Of a DNA stretch of 64,000 nucleotides, positions 8,518 through 63,572 are shown piece by piece (the first letter of the stretch is position 1; the number at the start of each line of letters is the position of its first letter). The notes under the pieces are model-generated. The model had not been told where the DNA came from and did not search any database. It saw only the letters and a list, made by a program, of their open reading frames with translations. Location: assembly GCA_035265935.1 (NCBI GenBank), contig DATFOC010000076.1, positions 4,084 through 68,083 of the forward strand, written 5' to 3'. This DNA comes from Gaiellaceae bacterium (GTDB taxonomy: Bacteria > Actinomycetota > Thermoleophilia > Gaiellales > Gaiellaceae). The translations under genes and the position numbers were made by a program.

Positions 8518-8585
8518 GAAAGACCTCGCTGTGTCAATCCCTTTCAATCGAGAATCGATCGTAACAGCGGGCCTTGACGGCATCG

Positions 8586-8754
8586 GGAGGGCTTGGTGGA
8601 ACGTCGCTCGTCGCAGGCGTGCGATGCTCGTTCCGAGGCAAGGACGCAGGGAGCGTTCGTATCGATGAGATACGGGCGCGAACTGAGGACGCAGACCTCG
8701 GGGCGAAGCAGCGCGGCGGCCCTGCGGCACAGTCGTCGTTTCGCCAAGCCCTCC
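8586..8754. repeat. Foldback element B: 169-nt long imperfect hairpin
   Basis: GGAGGGCTTGG (8586-8596) pairs perfectly with CCAAGCCCTCC (8744-8754). The helix continues inward (8597-8606/8734-8743, 8610-8617/8721-8728, 8621-8638/8696-8714) to an apical hairpin at 8653-8679. Confidence 0.7.
8652..8680. promoter_or_regulatory. Apex dyad AGCG-TT-C-GTATC-GATGA-GATAC-G-GG-CGCG
   Basis: The same 29-bp dyad architecture occurs at 10807-10835 and 61738-61766, with an AT-rich core in a GC-rich context. Confidence 0.5.
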
Positions 8755-10739: not shown

Positions 10740-10740
10740 G

Positions 10741-10902
10741 TGACCCTCCCGGTGACGTTGCCGCGTTCCTGGCGTGCGAAAAACGCCTCAGGCCTGCCAG
10801 GAAGGGCGCGTGCATATCCAAGGGATATGTGCGCGACCGAGGGGCGCGCGTGAGGTGATTTTGCAGCCGCCAGGGACACGGAGGGCGTTGCCGGGATGGT
10901 CA
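10741..10902. repeat. Foldback element C: 162-nt long imperfect hairpin filling the carboxypeptidase/pfkB spacer
   Basis: The outer stem pairs 10741-10759 with 10884-10902 (18 of 19 positions pair, 4 of them G:T). The helix continues through 10761-10774/10868-10881 and 10776-10790/10851-10864 to the apex CATATCC-AAG-GGATATG (10813-10829). Confidence 0.7.
10807..10835. promoter_or_regulatory. Apex dyad CGCG-TG-C-ATATC-CAAGG-GATAT-G-TG-CGCG (candidate operator or RNA apical stem)
   Basis: Near-perfect 29-bp palindrome about 70-95 nt upstream of the pfkB start. Shared with 8652-8680 and 61738-61766. Confidence 0.5.
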
Positions 10903-12018
10903 CCTAAACCAGCCTCCAATGTGATCCAGTGTGCGACCCGCATACCAGCCGGTGCGGTCGAAGAAGCCAGGGTCGTCGCGCGCCTCGGCCGCGATGAGCG
11001 GCGTCCGTCCGAGGAGACGCTTGCGGTCGTAGAAGCGGACCTCGCCGACGACTTGTCCCTCGCGGACGGGAAGGTCGAGCCGGGACGGCAGGACGACGCG
11101 CTCCACCAGCGGCCGCCCGATCCGGACCGGTCTCCGCATCGGCCGCGCGGCGACGACGGAAACCGGCTCCGAGCCCCACTCCGCGGGGATCCGGCCATAG
11201 ACACGGTCCGCCGACGCGAGCGGCACGAACGCGTACCGCGACATGCCCCAGGCGAGCAGCTCCTCGAGGTCCGCGTTGCGGACGGCGCGCGACGGGCTTC
11301 CGAGAATCGTCGCGTAGATCGTCACGTGGTTGCCGCGGGCTGCCGCGACCTGATTCCACCCGGCGCCGGAGGTGTGGCCGGTCTTGACGCCGAAGGTGCC
11401 CGGGAACTCGCCCAGGAGGTCGTTCCAGGTGTGGAGCGTCCGGCCGCCGGAGATCGAAGCCGACTCCTGGCGCACCAGCTGACGGATTATCGGCTCGCGC
11501 ATGGCGGCCATCGCGAGCTTCGTGACGTCCCGAGCGCTCGAGTAGTGGCCCTGCGCGTCGAGCCCATCCGGCCGGACGAAGCGCGTGTCGGGAAGCCCGA
11601 TGCTGCCGGCCGTGTTGTTCATCAGCGTCGGGAACGGCTCCCCGACCCGACCCCCGACGAACTCTCCTAGCGCAACGGCCGAGTCGTTCGCGCTCTGAAT
11701 CAGCGCGGCCGCCATCAGCTCGCGGACGCGGATCCGCTCCCCGGCGCGCAGACGGATCGTCGACCCGGTCACGCCGACGGCGTCTGGATCGACAGTCACC
11801 AGCTCGTTCGGCCTCGCGTGGGCCACGGTAAGCAAGGCGGTCATCAGCTTCGTGATGCTCGCGATCGGCAGCCGATCGTGAGCCCGGCGGGCAAGCAGCA
11901 CCTCGCCCGTCTGCGCCTCCTGCACGAGGTAGGCGCGAGCGTCGACCTCAGGAGTCGCCGCGGACGCGGCTGAGGTCGAACAGGCAAGGACAGCGACAAG
12001 GACCGCCAGTCGCTTCAC
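10900..12018 (-). CDS. D-alanyl-D-alanine carboxypeptidase (serine peptidase S11, PBP5 type)
   Basis: 372 aa. Signal peptide, SxxK active site (ASITKLMT), SGN-like and KTG (VKTGHT) motifs. Confidence 0.85.
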   Translation of the reverse strand: MKRLAVLVAVLACSTSAASAATPEVDARAYLVQEAQTGEVLLARRAHDRLPIASITKLMTALLTVAHARPNELVTVDPDAVGVTGSTIRLRAGERIRVRELMAAALIQSANDSAVALGEFVGGRVGEPFPTLMNNTAGSIGLPDTRFVRPDGLDAQGHYSSARDVTKLAMAAMREPIIRQLVRQESASISGGRTLHTWNDLLGEFPGTFGVKTGHTSGAGWNQVAAARGNHVTIYATILGSPSRAVRNADLEELLAWGMSRYAFVPLASADRVYGRIPAEWGSEPVSVVAARPMRRPVRIGRPLVERVVLPSRLDLPVREGQVVGEVRFYDRKRLLGRTPLIAAEARDDPGFFDRTGWYAGRTLDHIGGWFR

Positions 12019-38976: not shown

Positions 38977-39273
38977 GTGGAGACCGAGCCGACCAGGGAG
39001 GACATCGACGCGCTCGTCGGGCCGGCGACGCCGCACTTCGCGTACCAGATCCGCGCGCGCGTGCGTGAGCTGGTCGAGGGGCTGCCGGAGGATCATCCGG
39101 TCCGCCAGTACGGCGAGGAGCAGATCGAGCTGCTCGACCGGCTCGGCTATGCCTCGTCGAAGGCGGAAGACGGGCCGCCCGAGCCGCGCACGCGCATCGG
39201 CTGGGAGCGCATGCCGAGCGCCGCGCCGGCCGACCACCCGCTTCCCAGGAGCTCACCTCAGAGTGAGCGCTGA
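38977..39273 (+). CDS. Hypothetical protein
   Basis: 98-aa GTG-initiated ORF with coding-like composition. I recognised no family. Confidence 0.45.
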   Translation: METEPTREDIDALVGPATPHFAYQIRARVRELVEGLPEDHPVRQYGEEQIELLDRLGYASSKAEDGPPEPRTRIGWERMPSAAPADHPLPRSSPQSER

Positions 39274-39299
39274 GCCGCCCTGAGGCGAGCTCCGAAGGG

Positions 39300-40040
39300 A
39301 TGACGCGGTTCGAGGGAGCCTCGGTGCTGGTCACCGGCGGCTCGCGGGGGATCGGGAAGGCGATCGCTCTCCGCTTCGCCGAGCTCGGCGCTGCACGGGT
39401 CGCGATCGGCTACATGCGGAACGACACGGCTGCCGAGCAGACGGCCGACGACCTCCGCGGATTCGGTGCCGAGCCACTGTTGATCCGGGGAAACGTCACC
39501 TCGGAGCGTGTCCTCGCCGAGGTCGAGAGCCACGGGCCCTGGAACGTCGTCGTCCACAACGCCGCGACCGGCGTGATCCGGCCGGCACTTGAGACCGAGG
39601 ACAAGCACTGGGACTGGACGCTCGGCGCCAACGCTCGGGCGCTGCTCTCGCTCGCCCGTGTGGCCGCGCCCGCCATGCCGAAGGGCTCCTCGATCATCGG
39701 GATCTCCAGTCTCGGGTCGACGCGCGTAATGGAAAACTACGTGCTCGTCGGAACCTCGAAGGCGGCCCTCGAGTCACTCGTCCGGTATCTGGCCGTCGAG
39801 CTGGCGCCGCGCGGGATCCGCGTCAACGCCGTTTCAGGCGGTGTCATCGAGACCGGCGCCCTCGAGCACTTCCCGAACAAGGAAGACATGATCCGAGCCG
39901 CTCAGAAACGGACTCCGGCAGGGCGCATGGTGGTTCCGTCGGACATCGCGGGCGCCGTGATCTTCCTCGCCTCCGAGGACGCAGACATGATCCGCGGCCA
40001 GACGCTCGTCGTCGACGGCGGCTTCTCGCTCCTCGCCTAG
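39300..40040 (+). CDS. SDR family oxidoreductase (FabL-like enoyl-ACP reductase type)
   Basis: 246 aa. TGGSRGIGKA cofactor motif and YxxxK (VGTSKAALE). Confidence 0.85.
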   Translation: MTRFEGASVLVTGGSRGIGKAIALRFAELGAARVAIGYMRNDTAAEQTADDLRGFGAEPLLIRGNVTSERVLAEVESHGPWNVVVHNAATGVIRPALETEDKHWDWTLGANARALLSLARVAAPAMPKGSSIIGISSLGSTRVMENYVLVGTSKAALESLVRYLAVELAPRGIRVNAVSGGVIETGALEHFPNKEDMIRAAQKRTPAGRMVVPSDIAGAVIFLASEDADMIRGQTLVVDGGFSLLA

Positions 40041-50272: not shown

Positions 50273-50467
50273 ATGACCGAGATCGTCGAGTACAACCAGA
50301 GTGATCGCGAAAAGGTCGCCAGCTGGCGTCTCCACCAGCTGATCGAGGCCGGCTATCCCGTTCACCTGGCTGAGCGGCTCGCCCACAGCGAGGCCGACCT
50401 CCATCGCGCGATGGAGCTCGTCCGCCAGGGCTGCGACGCCAAGGTCGCGGCCGAGATCCTCCTCTAG
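50273..50467 (+). CDS. Hypothetical small protein (64 aa)
   Basis: The ATG at 50273 gives MTEIVEYNQSDREKVASWRLHQLIEAGYPVHLAERLAHSEADLHRAMELV.... Confidence 0.4.
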   Translation: MTEIVEYNQSDREKVASWRLHQLIEAGYPVHLAERLAHSEADLHRAMELVRQGCDAKVAAEILL

Positions 50468-50532
50468 CGCCCAACGCGATTAGCCAAACGGGCCGTCTAC
50501 CTGCCTGCGCCCGCTGCTGGCATCCTGGCGGC

Positions 50533-51618
50533 ATGGCGAAGGTCGAGGCTGCGCAGTACGGCGATCGGAAGGTCTACAGCGTTTCCGCGTTCAACCGCGG
50601 AATCGCTGATTGGCTCTCTCGGCTGCCGACGGTCTGGGTCGAAGGCGAAGTCACCGAGCTTCGGCGCCAGCAGCGTTGGGCGAGCGTCTTCCTCACGCTG
50701 AAGGATCCGGCTGACGGCTCCTGCCTGCGAGTTTCGATGCCGCGCAGCCAGTTCGACGCGCTGCGGCTCGACCTCGTCGACGGAGAGCGTGTCCACGTCT
50801 ACGGCAGGCCGGAGCTCTTCGAGGCGCGCGGCGACTTTCGCTTCCGGGCGCTGTCGATCGAGCGTTTCGGGCTCGGCGACCACCTGGCTGCGCTGGAGCG
50901 GCTCAAGCGCAAGCTCGCCGCAGAGGGGCTCTTCGAACGACGCCGGCCGCTGCCGCGCTTCCCGCGCCGGATCGGGCTCGTGACCGGCAACGACGCTGCC
51001 GCGAAGCGCGACGTCCTCACCGCGCTCACGACCCGCTTCCCGCCGGCGCGCGTCGTCGTTGCAGAGACGTACGTCCAGGGCCCCCGCGCTGCACCCGCGA
51101 TCGTCGAGGCGATCGGAGCACTGTGCGAGATCGACGACGTCGACGTGATCGTGCTCGCCCGTGGCGGAGGGAACTTCGAGGACCTCCTGCCGTTCAGCGA
51201 CGAGCGGTTGGTGCGAGTCGTGGCCTCCTGCCGGGTTCCGATCGTGTCCGCGGTGGGCCACGAGCAGGACATGCCGCTAACGGATCTCGCCGCCGACGTC
51301 CGCGCGTCGACGCCGAGCGTCGCCGCCCGGCTCGTCGTCCCGGACGCGGACGAGCTGCGCGAGCGCCTCGAGCAGACCCGTGAACGGCTGCGCCGCTCGC
51401 CGCTGCTCACGGTCGAGCGGAAGCGCGCGCGGCTCGATGGAGCCTACGGACGGCTACGAGCACTCTCCCCCACCTCCACGCTCGAGCGCGGATATGCCAT
51501 CGTCCGCCGCGACGGGAGGATCGTCCGGACCTCCGAGGAGGTCGAGGCCGGGTCGCGGGTGGACGTCGAGCTCGGACAGGGCGGCTTCGACGCAACGGTC
51601 GAGGACACGCACCAGTGA
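50533..51618 (+). CDS. xseA: Exodeoxyribonuclease VII large subunit
   Basis: 361 aa. An OB-fold N-terminus (VWVEGEVTE), RIGLVTG, ARGGG and VGHEQD motifs. Confidence 0.9.
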   Translation: MAKVEAAQYGDRKVYSVSAFNRGIADWLSRLPTVWVEGEVTELRRQQRWASVFLTLKDPADGSCLRVSMPRSQFDALRLDLVDGERVHVYGRPELFEARGDFRFRALSIERFGLGDHLAALERLKRKLAAEGLFERRRPLPRFPRRIGLVTGNDAAAKRDVLTALTTRFPPARVVVAETYVQGPRAAPAIVEAIGALCEIDDVDVIVLARGGGNFEDLLPFSDERLVRVVASCRVPIVSAVGHEQDMPLTDLAADVRASTPSVAARLVVPDADELRERLEQTRERLRRSPLLTVERKRARLDGAYGRLRALSPTSTLERGYAIVRRDGRIVRTSEEVEAGSRVDVELGQGGFDATVEDTHQ

Positions 51619-51667
51619 CCTGGGGGTTCTGGTCGTTCGCTGGCGGTGCGGGGCCGGAGGGCACAGT

Positions 51668-51967
51668 ATGAGCAATACGGGCCCGGAGAGCCCCGTGCCG
51701 CCAGCGGGCGAAGGCGACGGCGGAGGCGAGCCTCGCTCGCCGGGAGCTGGCGCCGATCAGAGCCGCCAGGTGACCTTCGAGGAGGCTCAACGCGAGCTGG
51801 AACGGATCGTCCAGCAGCTCGAGAGCGGGCAGGCCGACCTGGACGAGGCGATCACGCTCTGGGAGCGAGGCGAGGAGCTCTACCGCCTCTGCTCCGACAA
51901 GCTCGACTCGGCGCAGGGCAAGATCGAGGAGCTCGCCCGCAGGGTGGAAGCAGTGCGTCCCTCGTAA
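51668..51967 (+). CDS. xseB: Exodeoxyribonuclease VII small subunit
   Basis: Starts at ATG 51668. The core FEEAQRELERIVQQLESGQADLDEAITLWERGEELYRLC matches XseB. Confidence 0.85.
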   Translation: MSNTGPESPVPPAGEGDGGGEPRSPGAGADQSRQVTFEEAQRELERIVQQLESGQADLDEAITLWERGEELYRLCSDKLDSAQGKIEELARRVEAVRPS

Positions 51968-58456: not shown

Positions 58457-60000
58457 GAACCCGGATCGCACTGCTGATGCTCTCGCTGGCCGCCGCGGGC
58501 GCCGCGACGCTTACGCTGTCGCTCGCGAGCCCTGCCACGGTCCGCTCACCGGTCCCGTGGGCGACGCTCGCCTTCTCCAAGTCAGAAGTGGCGGGCGGAG
58601 GCGTCTACGTCGCCGGGCGGGGCCGCGCGCGGCTCATCCTTCCTGCCGCCTCCGATCCGGCGTGGTCGCCGGACGGCCGCCGGCTCGCGTATCTCGGTCC
58701 CGGCGCGGGTGGCGCGGCGGACGTCTACGTCGCCGACGCGGACGGAACGAACCGCGGCCGCCTGACGGCAACCGAGCTCGAGGAGGCCTCGCCGACCTGG
58801 GCCCCTGACGGTCGGCGACTGGCGGTCGAGCGAAACGGGTCGATCGTCCTTCTGCGGGCCGACGGCGTCGAGGGCCGGACGCTCGCGCGCGGTCTAGAGC
58901 CGGCCTGGTCGCCCGGAGGACAGCGGATCGCGTTCTCCGCCGGCGGCGACCTCGTCGTCGTCCGCACCCAGGGGGGTCGGCCGCAGAAGGTGACGAGCTC
59001 GCCGGCGTCCGAGTCGAGCCCCTCGTGGGCTCCCGACGGCCGGCGGCTCGCATACGTCACGGACGAGACCGGCGCCGCCGACATCCGCGTCCTCGACCTT
59101 CGCAGCCGGGCGATCGTGCAGGTCACCGCTGATCCCGCGGTCGATTCCGAGCCCGCGTTCTCGACCAACGGCAAGCGCGTTGTGTTCGTCAGCGACCGGG
59201 CCGGCGTCGAGCAGATCGTCGGCGCTCCTGCCTCCGGGGGAGCAGCGGCACTCGTCTCCGCGATCCAGCTCCCGGCCCACCCGACCGCCCGGCCCGTCCA
59301 GCGCCCCCTCGAGCTCCTGCCCGATTTCGACCAGCAGCCCCCACGGGATCTCGAGGTGCGCCGGACCGGGAGGCGCTTCCTCCTGTGGTTCACCTCGGCG
59401 GCCGACAACGTGGGGCTCGGCCCGTTCATCGTCAACGGCCGACGACGAGGGGCAGGCGCAATGCACGCCAGCCAGCGGGTCCGGCTCACGGACGGTTCGC
59501 TCCGAACCTACCCCGAGGTCGGCGTCTGGCGCTACAACGCGACCTCCGATCACTCCCACTGGCATCTCTTCGCCTTCCAGCGCTACGAGCTGCGCCGCGG
59601 TGACGGCTCCCTCGTCGTCCGCGATCGCAAGAGCGGCTTCTGCATCGGCGACCGGTACGGCGTGGCTCCGGGCCGAATCGCGGACCGCACATTCCGGCCG
59701 GTCTTCCGGGGGTTGTGCAACCTCTACCAGCCTGGTGCGTCGGACGTGAACGCCGGAACCTCCGTCGGCTTCTCGGACCGCTACCACTCTCGCCTCGACG
59801 GCCAGAACGTCGACCTGACGAAGGTGCCGCCCGGACGTTACGTCCTCGTGAACCGTGCGAATCCGAGCGCCGAGCTCCACGAGCTGCGGTACGAGAACAA
59901 TGCGGCGTCCGTCGCGATTCGGGTCAGCCGGCCGCGAGGCCGGAGGAGCGCGCCCGGCGTGAGAGTCCTCGCGACCTGCCCGGACTCAGGTCGCTGCTAG
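58453..60000 (+). CDS. Secreted PD40 (TolB-like) beta-propeller fused to a lysyl-oxidase-like domain
   Basis: Starts at GTG 58453 (GTGA overlap). Signal peptide, repeated WSPDGRRLAY/WAPDGRRLA motifs, then DHSHWHLFAFQRYEL, RKSGFCIGD and GFSDRYHSRLDGQNVDLTKVPPGRYVL, resembling LOX copper-site and LTQ-region motifs. Confidence 0.8.
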   Translation: MRTRIALLMLSLAAAGAATLTLSLASPATVRSPVPWATLAFSKSEVAGGGVYVAGRGRARLILPAASDPAWSPDGRRLAYLGPGAGGAADVYVADADGTNRGRLTATELEEASPTWAPDGRRLAVERNGSIVLLRADGVEGRTLARGLEPAWSPGGQRIAFSAGGDLVVVRTQGGRPQKVTSSPASESSPSWAPDGRRLAYVTDETGAADIRVLDLRSRAIVQVTADPAVDSEPAFSTNGKRVVFVSDRAGVEQIVGAPASGGAAALVSAIQLPAHPTARPVQRPLELLPDFDQQPPRDLEVRRTGRRFLLWFTSAADNVGLGPFIVNGRRRGAGAMHASQRVRLTDGSLRTYPEVGVWRYNATSDHSHWHLFAFQRYELRRGDGSLVVRDRKSGFCIGDRYGVAPGRIADRTFRPVFRGLCNLYQPGASDVNAGTSVGFSDRYHSRLDGQNVDLTKVPPGRYVLVNRANPSAELHELRYENNAASVAIRVSRPRGRRSAPGVRVLATCPDSGRC

Positions 60001-60669
60001 CCCCAGCGCGGCCGGCAGCGCGAAGAGGTCGGGGAGCCGGTCTTCGGCTTCAGGAAAGGCGTCCTCCCGGTCGACGAGGAACGCCTGCATGCCGAGCGCC
60101 CTGGCGCCCTCGAGGTCGTCCTCGGGCGAGTCGCCGACCATCGCGGCCCGCTCGGCAGGGACACCGAGCCGGTCGAGCACGGCCTGGAAGATCGTCGGGT
60201 GGGGCTTCACCTTCCCGTGCACCCGGGACGACAGCGCGGCGTGCACGCGGATGCTGTGGTGCGCGAGGAACTCGTCGACGTCGCGACCCGTGTTCGAGAC
60301 GAGGCCGAGCTTCAGCCCGTGCTCACGCAGGTGGTCGAGCACCGGCAGCGCATCGTCGAAGAGGTCGAAGTTGTGCGCTTGCTCCCAGGCCTTGGTCATC
60401 TCGACCGCGGCCTCGTACGCGCGATCCGTGTCTCCGCCCATGCCGCGGATGATCCGCTCGGTGAACCCGACCCAGATCTCCTCGTCGTGGCGGAAGTCCG
60501 GATGCTTGTGGAGCCCCTCCACGGCCTTCGCGCGGGCATCCCGATAGAGGGCCGGATCGAGCTCCAGGCCGAAGCGACGACCCAGCCGCTGATACCCCTC
60601 CGGGCCGAGGTCCGGCCCCGGCTTGGCCAGCGTGAAGTCGAGGTCGAAGAGAACCGCCTGGATGTCCAT
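59986..60669 (-). CDS. HAD family hydrolase
   Basis: Starts at the internal ATG 60669: MDIQAVLFDLDFTL (DxD motif), VSNT and GDSPEDDLEGA. Confidence 0.85.
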   Translation of the reverse strand: MDIQAVLFDLDFTLAKPGPDLGPEGYQRLGRRFGLELDPALYRDARAKAVEGLHKHPDFRHDEEIWVGFTERIIRGMGGDTDRAYEAAVEMTKAWEQAHNFDLFDDALPVLDHLREHGLKLGLVSNTGRDVDEFLAHHSIRVHAALSSRVHGKVKPHPTIFQAVLDRLGVPAERAAMVGDSPEDDLEGARALGMQAFLVDREDAFPEAEDRLPDLFALPAALGLAAT

Positions 60670-60835
60670 CAGTGCCTCTGCAGGTAATGCAGCCCCGCTT
60701 CTGGGTCGTGAGCACCAAGCCAGAGACCGCACTCGCCCGCAGCCAAGGCTGAGAGCCTTGGTAAGGGCGAGGGTGGGCTCTGGCGCCGCGTGATCACGGG
60801 CCAGAAGCCGGCGTGTATTGCCTGTAGAGGCACTG
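60670..60835. repeat. Foldback element A: 166-nt long imperfect hairpin filling the whole C-N hydrolase/HAD spacer
   Basis: CAGTGCCTCTGCAGGTAAT (60670-60688) pairs with ATTGCCTGTAGAGGCACTG (60817-60835), with 2 G:T pairs. Inner helices are 60697-60704/60801-60808 and 60719-60738/60765-60784. The apex is CCAAGGCT-GAG-AGCCTTGG (60743-60761). Confidence 0.7.
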
Positions 60836-61561
60836 TTACGGCGTAGGAGTTGGCCACCGGTAGGCATCTGCCTGCCTGCTGGCCAGCGAGGGAAGCTTCG
60901 CGCGAACGTTCTCGAGCCGACGCCTGTCGAGCTCTGCGGAGATCACCGTCTCCTCGTCCGGCGCACACGCGACCACGGTCCCCCACGGATCCGCGATCAG
61001 CGAGCGCCCGTAGCTGAGACGCCCCGGCAGCGTCTCGCCGATCTGGGCCGCGGCCGCGACGTAGTACTGATTCTCGACTGCACGGGCACGGAGCAGCAGC
61101 TCCCAGTGATCCTTTCCGGTGTACAGCGTGAAATGCGCCGGAACCGTGACGAGGTGCGCGCCCTGGAGCGCGAGGATCCGGTAAAGCTCGGGGAAGCGGA
61201 CGTCGTAGCAGACGGTCAGCCCGGTGGCCCAGCCTTCCACCTCGAGGACGACCGGCTCGGCGCCCGGCTCCTCCGCGTCCGACTCCCGATACACGTGGCC
61301 GCCGACCTCGACGTCGAACATGTGGATCTTCCGGTAGAGGCCGGCGATCGACCCGTCCGACTCGAAGACGATGCTCGTGTTGGAGAGCTTGTCGCGACCC
61401 TCCCGACGCTCGGTGATCGAGCCGCCGACGAGCGTGATCCCGTGCCCGCTCGCCCAGGCCGCCATCGCCTGAACCGACTCGCCGTCCTCGAGCGTCTCCG
61501 CTGCACCATGGAGCACGTCGGGGGTGCCGATCGCGTTCCACTTCTCCGGGAGGACGACCAC
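60836..61561 (-). CDS. Carbon-nitrogen hydrolase (nitrilase superfamily); true start probably upstream (CTG at 61684)
   Basis: The ORF track starts at GTG 61561 (MVVLPEKWN). The same frame upstream encodes the conserved N-terminus ...LRVACVQLTSRDDKAANIEKAEQLVARAAATGAD without an ATG/GTG/TTG. Catalytic Cys region: GLTVCYDVRFPE. Confidence 0.85.
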   Translation of the reverse strand: MVVLPEKWNAIGTPDVLHGAAETLEDGESVQAMAAWASGHGITLVGGSITERREGRDKLSNTSIVFESDGSIAGLYRKIHMFDVEVGGHVYRESDAEEPGAEPVVLEVEGWATGLTVCYDVRFPELYRILALQGAHLVTVPAHFTLYTGKDHWELLLRARAVENQYYVAAAAQIGETLPGRLSYGRSLIADPWGTVVACAPDEETVISAELDRRRLENVRAKLPSLASRQADAYRWPTPTP

Positions 61562-61670
61562 GTCGGCGCCCGTCGCCGCCGCGCGTGCGACGAGCTGCTC
61601 GGCTTTCTCGATGTTCGCCGCCTTGTCGTCCCGGCTCGTGAGCTGGACGCAGGCGACGCGAAGCGTGTCA

Positions 61671-61833
61671 GGAGTTCGTTTCAGGGTGATGCTCGTCGTC
61701 AGGGTGCGATGGGTGGATGCCAGGCCCGGACGCAGACCGCGTCCATATCAAGTCGATATTGGCGCGGTTGAGGACGACGCCTGGCGCCGCCCAGCACGGC
61801 CTGGCGGCACAGCCTCACTCTGGAACGAGCTCC
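61671..61833. repeat. Foldback element D: 163-nt long imperfect hairpin in the divergent C-N hydrolase/MFS spacer
   Basis: Pairings: 61671-61693 with 61811-61833 (19 WC, 3 G:T, 1 mismatch); 61700-61716 with 61787-61803; 61719-61725 with 61779-61785; 61735-61744 with 61761-61769. The apex is ATATC-AAGTC-GATAT. Confidence 0.65.
61738..61766. promoter_or_regulatory. Apex dyad CGCG-TC-C-ATATC-AAGTC-GATAT-T-GG-CGCG
   Basis: In register with the dyads at 8652-8680 and 10807-10835. It lies centrally between two divergent genes. Confidence 0.5.
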
Positions 61834-61861
61834 GAGCATCCAGTGGCAGGATAGCCCCGCT

Positions 61862-63094
61862 TTGGAAGTGGCAGCAGACAGACCAGGGCGCGCACGCGCC
61901 CTCCATGCCCTGCGCAGCAGGGACTTCCGCCTGCTCTGGAGCGGCCAGACGATCTCGCTCGTCGGCGACGGAGCCTTCCTGGTGGCGCTCGGCTGGACGA
62001 GCTTCGCTCTGACGGGGTCGAAGAGCACCCTCGCGCTCGTCCTCCTTGGACACAGCGCGGCGATGCTCGCGACGCTGCTAATCGGCGGAGTGCTCGCCGA
62101 CCGCTACCCGCGCCGCACGCTCATGATCATCTCCGACCTCTCGCGCTGCGCGTGCATGGTCGTCCTCTTCGCCGTGGACGTGAGCGGCAACCTCGAGCTC
62201 TGGAGCCTCATCACGCTCGCCGTCCTCTACGGGGCGGGCGACGGGTTCTTCTACCCGGCCTACGGCGGGATCGTTCCGCTGGTCGTCGACGAGCACCATC
62301 TCGCGTCGGCAAACGCGCTCACCGGCCTCTCGCGCCAGGCCGCCTTCGTCGTCGGGCCGGCTGTCGCGGGCGTCCTCTACGGCGTCGCGGGAGCGTCGTC
62401 CGTGTTCGCGCTCAACGCGGTCAGCTTCGTCGTCGCGGCCGCGCTCATGGCCATGGCGCGCCCGCGCGGGTTCGAGCGCGACGAGCCGCAGGGCACTCTC
62501 AAGGAGATCGCCGACGGCCTGCGCTACGTCCTCGGCGTCCCGTGGCTCTGGATCACGATCTTCCTCGCCTCGTTCATCCTCATGGTCGCCATGGCCCCGT
62601 ACACGGCGCTGCTGCCTGCGTTCGTCGAGGAGCAGTTCCACCGCGGCGTCGGCTCGTACGGCACGCTCTTCACGCTCCAGTCGCTCGGCATGGCAGTCGG
62701 GAGCCTTGCGTTCGGCCAGACGAACCCGAGCCGCCGGCGCGTGATCATCATGTATCTGCTCTTCGCAGCCAATGACATCTGCGTGATCGCCATGACGCTG
62801 ACCCACTCCTTCAGCCTTGCCTGCGCCCTCGTCGCGGCGCGAGGGGTCTGCATCGGCTACGGGATCGGGGTCTGGACCACGCTCTTGATGCAGCAGGTCC
62901 CGTCGTCGAAGCTTGCGCGTGTGACGAGCCTCGACTTCTTCGGATCCTTCGCGCTGATCCCCGTGGGCTACGCGCTGACCGCAGTCGTGGCAGGGTCGTT
63001 CTCGCCTGCAACGCTGTTGTTCGTCGGATTCACGCTTTCGGCCATCCTCTGGATCGCTCCGCTCGCGTCGACGCGGGTGCGCACAGCCGCATGA
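61862..63094 (+). CDS. MFS transporter (EntS/DUF894-like)
   Basis: 410 aa. FRLLWSGQTISLVGDG, GGVLADRYPRR, 12 TM segments. TTG 61862 or GTG 61868 start. Confidence 0.88.
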   Translation: MEVAADRPGRARALHALRSRDFRLLWSGQTISLVGDGAFLVALGWTSFALTGSKSTLALVLLGHSAAMLATLLIGGVLADRYPRRTLMIISDLSRCACMVVLFAVDVSGNLELWSLITLAVLYGAGDGFFYPAYGGIVPLVVDEHHLASANALTGLSRQAAFVVGPAVAGVLYGVAGASSVFALNAVSFVVAAALMAMARPRGFERDEPQGTLKEIADGLRYVLGVPWLWITIFLASFILMVAMAPYTALLPAFVEEQFHRGVGSYGTLFTLQSLGMAVGSLAFGQTNPSRRRVIIMYLLFAANDICVIAMTLTHSFSLACALVAARGVCIGYGIGVWTTLLMQQVPSSKLARVTSLDFFGSFALIPVGYALTAVVAGSFSPATLLFVGFTLSAILWIAPLASTRVRTAA

Positions 63095-63498: not shown

Positions 63499-63572
63499 CG
63501 GGGTGTGGCGCAGCCTGGTAGCGCGCTCCGTTCGGGTCGGAGAGGTCCCCAGTTCAAATCTGGGCACCCCGA
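63499..63572 (+). tRNA. tRNA-Pro (anticodon CGG)
   Basis: Hand-folded cloverleaf: acceptor CGGGGTG/CACCCCG; D arm GCGC-AGCCTGGTA-GCGC; anticodon arm CTCCG-TTCGGGT-CGGAG; T arm CCCAG-TTCAAAT-CTGGG; discriminator A. No encoded CCA. Confidence 0.93.

What the first reader, a model, noticed from the sequence alone, without database searches (positions are those of the whole stretch)
60670..60835. Element A: a 166-nt hairpin occupies every nucleotide between the C-N hydrolase stop and the HAD hydrolase start
The 19-nt outer stem (60670-60688 / 60817-60835) begins 1 nt after the HAD ATG (60667-60669) and ends 1 nt before the hydrolase stop (60836-60838). CCTC at 60675-60678 is the complement of the HAD SD (GAGG), so the SD lies inside the stem. 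Inner helices 60697-60704/60801-60808 and 60719-60738/60765-60784 lead to a perfect 8-bp apical stem, CCAAGGCT-GAG-AGCCTTGG. There are five G:T pairs and no A:C pair on the + strand. This copy lacks the RTATC-N5-GATAY apex, so the family may have subtypes.
Basis: seen in the sequence. Interest (0 to 1): 0.65.

Follow-up and report, generated by a model that had tools for sequence, protein, structure and literature searches.

The report
Mobile hairpin repeat inserted in operon junction
The 166-base hairpin between the two hydrolase genes is real, but it is a recently inserted copy of a previously undescribed family of small hairpin-shaped mobile repeats found in soil Gaiellales bacteria, and it brings its own ribosome-binding site for the downstream gene.

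Summary

The interpretation as a conserved regulatory spacer does not hold. Of 42 related metagenome loci with the same gene pair adjacent, 40 have a 3-8 nt spacer or a 4-nt overlap. These include relatives at 97.6% and 95% HAD identity. Only the same strain carries the element. One distant lineage carries a separate copy at the same junction.

Element A is a divergent subtype of a ~165-nt palindromic repeat family found almost only in Gaiellales/Thermoleophilia MAGs. About 100 copies were retrieved, and three canonical copies lie in this window (8585-8754, 10740-10903, 61670-61830). Pairing is kept by compensatory changes. G:U outnumbers A:C about 10:1 on one strand, which at A is antisense to the operon.

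Best reading: a non-autonomous MITE/REPIN-like mobile element tolerated at a tight operon junction. How it moves and what it does to expression are inferred, not shown. No matching Rfam family or paper was found.

The parts
60670..60835 (+). Element A: 166-nt whole-length imperfect palindrome. It is an A-type subtype with type-3 termini. The + strand is the G:U/purine-rich, better-folding strand. The - strand is the operon mRNA sense.
   Evidence: fold; insertion: filled versus empty sites; sibling copies and covariation.
60670..60688 (+). Outer stem, 5' arm on the + strand (CAGTGCCTCTGCAGGTAAT). Its complement on the - strand carries the HAD SD AGAGG (60679-60675).
60817..60835 (+). Outer stem, 3' arm on the + strand (ATTGCCTGTAGAGGCACTG). 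On the mRNA it is the first 19 nt after the hydrolase stop codon.
60742..60762 (+). Apical stem-loop GCCAAGGCT-GAG-AGCCTTGGT. It replaces the canonical GCGTNCRTATC-N5-GATAYNKGCGCG apex.
60667..60669 (-). HAD hydrolase start codon ATG, directly abutting the element.
60836..60838 (-). C-N hydrolase stop codon TAA, directly abutting the element. Empty-site relatives have TAG followed by a 3-8 nt spacer.
59986..60669 (-). HAD-family hydrolase gene (downstream gene).
60836..61675 (-). C-N hydrolase gene (upstream gene). Its 5' end runs into element E and has no canonical start codon in frame.
61670..61830 (+). Element E: canonical family copy (type 2 termini, apex ATATC-AAGTC-GATAT). It is itself an insertion a few nt after the native ATG of the C-N hydrolase.
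10740..10903 (+). Element C: canonical family copy with type 3 termini (GTGACCCTCC...GGTCAC). It fills a stop/ATG junction between two - strand genes, like A.
8585..8754 (+). Element B: canonical family copy with type 1 termini (GGGAGGGCTTGG...CCAAGCCCTCC).

Best explanation
Element A is one copy of a non-coding, ~165-nt, whole-length palindromic repeat family specific to Gaiellales/Thermoleophilia. The family behaves like a non-autonomous mobile element of the MITE/REPIN kind.

Shown:
- It inserted into a junction where the C-N hydrolase stop and the HAD start are normally 3-8 nt apart or overlap.
- The family keeps its hairpin through compensatory changes and strongly prefers G:U over A:C on one strand.
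- At A, that strand is antisense to the operon.
- The terminal inverted repeat of this subtype carries CCUC/GAGG, so after insertion the downstream ATG has a new SD (AGAGG, 5 nt upstream).

Inferred:
- The strand-specific pairing reflects a single-stranded (ssDNA or RNA) hairpin used in the element's own propagation or recognition, not a function of the host mRNA.
- The element is tolerated at operon junctions because the hairpin brings stop and start back together and supplies an SD. The weaker-folding orientation may be the one that survives in mRNA.
- In the transcript, the SD is buried in the outer stem and is probably exposed only when ribosomes finishing the upstream gene melt the 5' arm.

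The enzyme that moves the element is unknown.
For: Insertion:
- Of 42 orthologous loci with the two genes adjacent, 40 have 3-8 nt spacers or a 4-nt overlap. Only L118 (100% identical) has the 166-nt element, and L146 has a 170-nt relative.
- The nearest relatives are empty: L119 (HAD 97.6% aa, third codon positions 90% identical) and L120 (95%). They read ccgTAG-CGGCT-ATG against ccgTAA-[166 nt]-ATG in the filled allele.
- L146's own nearest relatives (86-92% DNA identity) are also empty, so the junction was most parsimoniously hit twice.

Family:
- The apex pattern retrieved 117 loci, of which ~100 are in Gaiellales/Gaiellaceae/Thermoleophilia MAGs.
- These fold at roughly -94 to -137 kcal/mol and about 23 kcal/mol better on one strand. 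Hits in other phyla fold at about -51 to -89 with no consistent asymmetry.
- The alignment of 103 copies is conserved over the whole length, with three types of termini.
- A has sibling copies at other loci (L068, E 1.5e-20; L011). It aligns full-length to type-3 copies at 72% mean column identity.

Structure:
- 33 of 44 consensus pairs show compensatory changes.
- The A-type set has 88% of cells paired and 18 pairs with double changes; 0/500 shuffles reach this, and slid controls give 36-43%.
- Across the family there are 3578 Watson-Crick, 643 G:U and 61 A:C cells. Minority transitions are 80 G:U against 15 A:C.

Decay products and nesting typical of mobile repeats:
- an apex-deleted copy;
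- a 60-nt mini copy;
- solo termini;
- a copy split by an IS256-type transposase gene.

Niche:
- Type 3 and A-type copies sit stop|element|ATG in 11 co-directional cases antisense against 1 sense.
- In the mRNA sense, SD..AUG has P(unpaired) 0.05.
Against: - No transposase or autonomous partner with matching ends was found in ~1.3 Mb of held sequence.
- Neither resolved filled/empty pair (A, E) shows a clean target-site duplication. At A, six nt of the empty site (G CGGCT) are missing from the filled allele.
- A itself is not detected by the family profile HMM. Its membership rests on shared termini, full-length alignment and intermediate copies.
- Resident orthologous copies are as conserved as, or more conserved than, flanking coding DNA. 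E is 98.2% identical between the window and L120, against 91-93% for the flanks and 82.5% for third codon positions. That fits host-level selection or gene conversion better than a purely selfish, neutral insertion.
- The ribosome-melting model gave only a modest in-silico gain in SD accessibility (0.05 to 0.19-0.30), because the freed SD re-pairs locally.
Confidence: 0.82

Rival explanations
1. Host-selected (exapted) regulatory module. Whatever its origin, the resident element is now maintained by the host. It would act as a translational coupler or attenuator, or as an RNase III/stability site, setting the HAD:hydrolase ratio.
For: - The SD and AUG are sequestered in the outer stem.
- The element supplies the only SD at a junction that otherwise relies on 3-8 nt coupling.
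- Orthologous resident copies diverge no faster, and often slower, than flanking coding DNA.
- Type 3 and A-type copies show an orientation bias in operon junctions, 11:1.
- The same junction is occupied twice, independently and in the same orientation.
Against: - 40 of 42 related junctions work without the element.
- The pairing-optimised strand is the antisense one.
- Slow divergence can also come from gene conversion among copies or from recent arrival.
- There are no expression data.
Confidence: 0.25
2. Conserved cis-regulatory hairpin of the operon transcript, evolved in place.
For: - The fold is extremely stable on the mRNA strand as well (z -9.8).
- The SD lies in the stem.
Against: - The element is absent from the same junction in close relatives.
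- It belongs to a dispersed multi-locus family.
- The G:U pairs and purine mismatches favour the other strand.
Confidence: 0.04
3. A family of small structured RNA genes (long-hairpin sRNA or antisense RNA) transcribed from the G:U-rich strand. At A the RNA would be antisense to the HAD ribosome-binding site.
For: - The family shows a strand-specific G:U excess and compensatory changes.
- Unpaired purine motifs (GGACGCAG / GAGGACG) flanking the apical stem are conserved.
Against: - No promoter-like or terminator-like site lies in or next to A.
- No Rfam family matches, even at E<=10.
- Orientation relative to neighbouring genes is mixed across the family.
- Copies show presence/absence polymorphism, truncated and nested forms, and insertion inside a coding start.
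Confidence: 0.07

Closest known systems
ERIC / RU-2 (YPAL) / Correia-type bacterial MITEs (whole-length imperfect palindromes of 100-170 bp)
   Same: - Size class, and no coding capacity.
- Terminal inverted repeats, and a whole element able to fold as a hairpin in transcripts.
- Dispersed in intergenic DNA and often co-transcribed at gene ends, with reported effects on mRNA. ERIC-type copies are flanked by 5'-TA-3' (review PMC3184786).
- Here the consensus termini are also TAG...CTA, and copies are polymorphic between close relatives.
   Different: - A different phylum (Actinomycetota, Gaiellales) and an unrelated sequence.
- The core and apex are the conserved part, while the termini come in three interchangeable types.
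- The termini carry stop-codon and SD/anti-SD motifs.
- No TA duplication is visible at the two resolved insertion sites, and E's empty site contains no TA.
- There is a strong one-strand G:U bias.
REPINs (REP doublets forming hairpins) mobilised by RAYT transposases
   Same: - A long hairpin is the unit of evolution.
- Compensatory changes keep the hairpin.
- The structure is proposed to form in ssDNA or mRNA.
- There are tens to hundreds of copies, and no obvious target duplication (PMC3116915).
- The family here shows the same signatures.
   Different: - REPINs are two short REP palindromes at the ends with a variable spacer. Here the ends are not self-palindromic and the centre is the conserved part.
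- There is no GTAG/CGTC tag (PMC3733652 title/abstract; sequence).
- No RAYT gene was seen near any of 117 loci.
MIRUs of mycobacteria (from my own knowledge: Supply et al. 1997, not read here)
   Same: Actinobacterial repeats sitting in intergenic spacers of operons, with stop and start signals arranged so that translation of flanking genes stays coupled.
   Different: MIRUs are 40-100 bp direct tandem units encoding small ORFs. They are not single long hairpins.

Membership tests
Bacterial MITE | Terminal inverted repeats and no transposase ORF | tested here: met
   The termini pair over 19 bp in A. Three conserved terminus types occur across 103 copies. The element is 166 nt with no ORF of its own.
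Bacterial MITE | Multiple dispersed copies with presence/absence between related genomes | tested here: met
   About 100 copies lie in Gaiellales MAGs, and there are 4 in this window. Empty sites were found for A (40 loci) and for E (L119, L130, L148 and others).
Bacterial MITE | Target-site duplication flanking the element | tested here: inconclusive
   The consensus ends are TA...TA, but TA is self-complementary and could be part of the palindrome. At A, the empty site TAG-CGGCT-ATG becomes TAA-[element]-ATG with no duplication. At E, at most a GA is repeated.
Bacterial MITE | A related autonomous IS with the same ends | tested here: inconclusive
   None was found in ~1.3 Mb of held loci. 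The only long interval between matching ends is an IS256-type insertion into a copy. Whole genomes could not be searched.
REPIN / REP-RAYT system | Two short REP palindromes in inverted orientation at the ends; GTAG or CGTC tag | tested here: not met
   The terminal 20-25 nt are not self-palindromic and carry no GTAG/CGTC tag. Conservation peaks at the centre (entropy).
REPIN / REP-RAYT system | Hairpin maintained by compensatory changes | tested here: met
   33 of 44 pairs have compensatory changes. The A-type set has 18 pairs with double changes, reached by 0/500 shuffles.
REPIN / REP-RAYT system | Cognate RAYT (Y1 HUH transposase) in the genome, flanked by copies | not testable with these tools
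   No recurrent neighbouring protein family resembling a transposase was found in 117 loci.
Any Rfam RNA family | Match to a curated covariance model | tested here: not met
   Only a tRNA reaches the gathering threshold in the window. No hit falls on family copies at E<=1. At A there are only far-sub-threshold generic miRNA-hairpin hits.
Intrinsic terminator | GC-rich hairpin followed by a U tract | tested here: not met
   No terminator-like site on either strand in 60300-62000.

The most novel reading that the evidence does not exclude
This would be a new kind of strand-specific hairpin mobile element that propagates through a single-stranded (ssDNA or RNA) intermediate recognised at a conserved apical module. 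That module is GCGTNCRTATC-loop-GATAYNKGCGCG, flanked by direct GGACGC purine motifs.

On this reading, the interchangeable termini are adaptations to different genomic niches. TAG/GGAGG ends suit convergent gene ends. GAGG-CACTG ends re-create an SD at stop|ATG operon junctions. The hairpin makes a 166-nt insertion topologically neutral for translational coupling.

Resident copies would then be kept by the host. They are more conserved than neutral sites, and the same junction was colonised twice.
Probability: 0.25. Interest if true: 0.75.

Novelty: new member of a known kind. Interest (0 to 1): 0.5.

Why it matters
The work turns an apparent operon riboregulator into a dated insertion event. 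It also uncovers an undescribed repeat family in Gaiellales, an abundant soil lineage known here almost only from MAGs.

The family offers a clean natural experiment. The same tight stop/start junction exists with and without a 166-nt hairpin in near-identical strains, so one can ask how translationally coupled genes survive such an insertion.

The one-strand wobble bias, the conserved apex with a hypervariable loop, and the niche-specific termini are concrete handles on how hairpin repeats move and are tolerated. That question is still open for ERIC-, Correia- and REPIN-type elements.

On the practical side, these hairpins will mislead ncRNA and riboswitch screens, gene callers and assemblers in these genomes. 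A spurious 293-aa ORF reads through A. Element E removes the canonical start of the hydrolase.

Tried and rejected
- **Rfam.** Gathering threshold on the window and E-value mode on family loci and on 60400-62000 gave nothing relevant.
- **Family profile HMM (nhmmer).** It finds B, C and E but not A. A's membership had to be shown through sibling copies and alignment to type-3 copies.
- **Element D (about 51614-51780, xseA/xseB junction).** It folds well on the + strand. It is not hit by the family profile, and its only match looks like an orthologous junction. I set it aside as a different thing.
- **Autonomous partner.** I looked for terminus pairs 0.3-4 kb apart and for protein families recurring next to copies. 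This found only solo or decayed ends, an IS256-type insertion, and ordinary paralog families (sensor kinases, dehydrogenases, ABC transporters).
- **Target-site duplication.** More filled/empty pairs from cross-comparison of all held loci were too diverged (about 80%) to read junctions.
- **TA-target model.** It fits the consensus ends but not E's empty site, which has no TA.
- **Ribosome-unmasking model.** Forcing the stop-codon footprint single-stranded raised SD..AUG accessibility only from 0.05 to 0.19-0.30, so the result is inconclusive.
- **Mutation-bias explanation of the G:T excess.** I consider it unlikely. The window's + strand has negative GC skew. Minority transitions favour G:U over A:C about 5:1 within the family, whatever the locus.
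- **Literature.** Searches for a described Gaiellales/Thermoleophilia hairpin repeat found nothing.

Full report
**1. The observation**

The region reads exactly as described. Both flanking genes are on the - strand.
- The HAD hydrolase (PF00702/PF13419) starts with ATG at 60669-60667.
- The C-N hydrolase (PF00795) ends with TAA at 60838-60836.
- The 166 nt between them form a single long imperfect hairpin.

Folding energies:

| Molecule and strand | MFE (kcal/mol) | Shuffles / z-score |
|---|---|---|
| RNA, + strand | -126.1 | -69.6 +/- 4.5; z -12.7 |
| RNA, - strand | -106.1 | z -9.8 |
| DNA, + strand | -70.2 | z -11.2 |
| DNA, - strand | -56.4 | z -8.7 |

It is the most stable 180-nt window in the 64 kb. 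The + strand structure has 70 pairs, 6 of them G:U and none A:C. All four 1x1 mismatches are purine-purine. The SD of HAD (AGAGG, 5 nt before the ATG) lies in the outer stem.

The strand with the wobble pairs is the + strand, which is antisense to the operon.

**2. It is not alone in the window**

The five best-folding 180-nt windows all fold 20-35 kcal/mol better on the + strand.

Three of them share a 28-nt apex, GCGTNCRTATC-N5-GATAYNKGCGCG, with purine-rich internal loops (GGACGCAG / GAGGACG) on both arms:
- B, 8585-8754
- C, 10740-10903
- E, 61670-61830

**3. A lineage-specific repeat family**

- About 100 are from Gaiellales, Gaiellaceae, Thermoleophilia or unclassified Actinomycetota MAGs.
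- These fold at roughly -94 to -137 kcal/mol over 178 nt. They fold on average 23 kcal/mol better on the pattern strand.
- The dozen hits in other phyla fold at about -51 to -89 with no consistent asymmetry. They serve as a built-in negative control.

Aligned, 103 copies are conserved along the whole ~165 nt, not just at the apex. They fall into three types of termini:
- Type 1: CTAGGAGGGYTTGGCGG...CCGCCAARCCCTCCTAG
- Type 2: TAGARCTCGTTTCAG...CTGGAACGAGYTCTAA
- Type 3: (T/C)AGTGCCYC...GRGGCACT(A/G)

RNAalifold predicts 44 consensus pairs, and 33 of them show compensatory changes. Over all cells there are 3578 Watson-Crick pairs, 643 G:U and only 61 A:C. Among minority single transitions from G-C pairs, 80 keep a wobble on this strand and 15 give A:C. 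The hairpin on one particular strand is therefore what is being preserved.

No Rfam family matches. I found no paper describing such a repeat in this lineage.

**4. Where element A fits**

The family profile does not detect A. Three lines of evidence still tie it to the family:
- A has a close sibling at another locus (L068:1219-1363, 89% over 114 nt, E 1.5e-20).
- A has a full-length relative with an intermediate apex (L011:2085-2248).
- A gives weak full-length matches to type-3 copies.

In a joint alignment, A shares its termini and arms with type 3 at 72% mean column identity. It carries a different core and apex, CCAAGGYT-loop-RGCCTTGG.

Among five A-type sequences, 88% of cells are paired, and 18 pairs changed on both sides. 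No shuffle out of 500 reaches this, and slid registers give 36-43%.

**5. A is an insertion**

A metagenome scan with the HAD protein gave 80 orthologous loci. In 42 of them the C-N hydrolase lies immediately upstream.
- 34 have a spacer of 3-8 nt.
- 6 have a 4-nt GTGA overlap.
- Only 2 have a long hairpin.

The two filled loci are L118, which is the same strain as the window (100% HAD identity), and L146 (83%).

The closest relatives are empty. L119 has HAD 97.6% aa identity, with third codon positions 90% identical. L120 has 95%.

| Allele | Junction |
|---|---|
| Empty (L119, L120) | ...ccgTAG CGGCT ATGgac... |
| Filled (window, L118) | ...ccgTAA [166 nt] ATGgac... |

L146's own nearest relatives (86-92% DNA identity) are empty too. 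The two elements are 82% identical, while third codon positions of the flanking gene are only 60.5% identical.

The most parsimonious reading is two independent insertions of the same subtype, in the same orientation, at the same junction.

**6. Other signs of mobility and decay**

E is also polymorphic. It is present in L118 and L120 and absent from L119, L130, L148 and others. The gap is a clean 161 nt.

Decayed and nested copies also exist:
- a copy lacking the apex (L159);
- a 60-nt mini copy made of the two termini (L035:4545);
- solo termini;
- a copy split by an IS256-type transposase gene (L065).

I found no autonomous partner and no transposase family recurring next to copies. I could not read a convincing target-site duplication. 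The consensus ends TA...TA are ambiguous because TA is its own complement. A's filled allele lacks six nt of the empty site. E's empty site has no TA.

**7. Genomic niche**

Stop codons of genes pointing at a copy lie within about 10 nt of its end in 53 of 57 type-1 cases. They often use the element's own TAG. Type 1 sits mostly between convergent genes: 16 convergent, 6 antisense co-directional and 2 sense co-directional.

Type 3 and A-type copies sit stop|element|ATG between co-directional genes. The wobble-rich strand is antisense to the genes in 11 cases and sense in 1. Their 3' arm in the mRNA sense reads GRGG-CAC(TG)-ATG. The insertion therefore re-creates an SD at junctions that otherwise show no SD and rely on 3-8 nt coupling.

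It follows from inserting into very short spacers.

**8. How it most likely works**

Shown:
- A is an inserted copy of a dispersed hairpin repeat.
- The hairpin is maintained by covariation.
- The maintained strand is not the operon mRNA.

Inferred:
- The single-strand constraint acts on the element's own life cycle. The hairpin would be recognised in ssDNA or RNA, probably at the conserved apex with its asymmetric purine motifs.
- In the host transcript the SD..AUG region is almost fully paired (P unpaired 0.05).
- A ribosome terminating on the TAA at the base of the stem should open the 5' arm that masks the SD. In silico this raises accessibility only to 0.19-0.30, because the freed SD re-pairs locally. 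I therefore hold this step loosely.
- The 11:1 orientation bias would be explained if only the weaker-folding orientation is tolerated in mRNA.

One complication. Resident orthologous copies diverge no faster than the flanking coding DNA. E is 98.2% identical against 91-93% for the flanks. C is 90% against 69-82%. This points to host-level selection or gene conversion.

**9. Comparison with known systems**

In behaviour the family resembles ERIC/YPAL/Correia-type MITEs and REPINs.

It fails the REPIN definition: it has no terminal REP palindromes, no GTAG/CGTC tag, and no RAYT was seen. It meets the MITE definition except for the target duplication and the autonomous partner, both of which remain unresolved.

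I file it as a new member of the known kind 'small non-autonomous palindromic repeats', with some unusual traits that could lift it higher if the mechanism proves distinct.

**10. Verdict**

The cis-regulatory interpretation is largely replaced by a mobile-repeat insertion. The family is undescribed and reasonably interesting.

Noticed in passing
window 61561-61830 (element E and the 5' end of the C-N hydrolase): E is inserted a few nt after the native start codon of the C-N hydrolase. Empty alleles read ATG TCG GAC ACG CTT CGG GTC. In the window the native ATG is 164 nt upstream and out of frame. The hydrolase frame has a TGA in E's apical loop and no ATG/GTG/TTG before 61561, which would cut off about 33 residues of the PF00795 domain. 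The ORF from the native ATG ends at TGA 61701-61699, which overlaps a CTG in the hydrolase frame. Yet the gene stays intact in L120, which shares the insertion.
   Followed up: partly
alignment A2 columns 98-102 (apical loop N5); e.g. window 8664-8668, 10819-10823, 61750-61754: The 5-nt apical loop is close to random among copies: 1.55-1.89 bits per position, with 28 different pentamers in 47 type-1 copies. The adjacent core has 0.16-0.27 bits. Either the loop shows the true neutral divergence and the rest is strongly constrained, or the loop is remade or hypermutable at each transposition.
   Followed up: partly
window about 51619-51715 (xseA stop / xseB start): Another long hairpin folds much better on the + strand, which here is the sense strand (-124.7 against -96.4 kcal/mol for 51590-51790). 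Its 5' arm is in the xseA-xseB spacer, and its 3' arm encodes an N-terminal extension of XseB. It is not a member of the repeat family by profile search.
   Followed up: partly
L146:1143-1315: An independent A-type element lies at the same hydrolase/HAD junction in a lineage whose nearest relatives are all empty. It has the same orientation, and the HAD start reads ATG AAC GAC instead of ATG GAC. This suggests a preferred target or a strongly favoured site.
   Followed up: yes
family alignment A2, both arms next to the apical stem (e.g. window 8634-8644 and 8684-8694): The motif AGGACGC(A/C)G occurs on both arms as a direct repeat, not an inverted one. It is more than 90% conserved and is predicted to form tandem G.A-type internal loops. 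It breaks the palindrome and defines the polarity of the element, so it may be a protein recognition site.
   Followed up: no
L065:4592-6159: A family copy is split near its apex by a 1.4-kb insertion encoding a 406-aa protein that, by my reading of its sequence (no Pfam scan was run on it), looks like an IS256/Mutator-family transposase.
   Followed up: partly
window 50440-50534 and 39219-39321: At these positions the window is the empty allele, while orthologous sites in other genomes carry family copies (L117:7329-7502 and L001:4092-4265).
   Followed up: partly
window 59986-60867 (- strand): A 293-aa ATG ORF reads through the whole hairpin into HAD. It is an artefact that automatic gene callers could pick as an N-terminally extended HAD.
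   Followed up: no
window 63499-63572 (+): A tRNA gene, the only Rfam hit in the window that reaches the gathering threshold.
   Followed up: no
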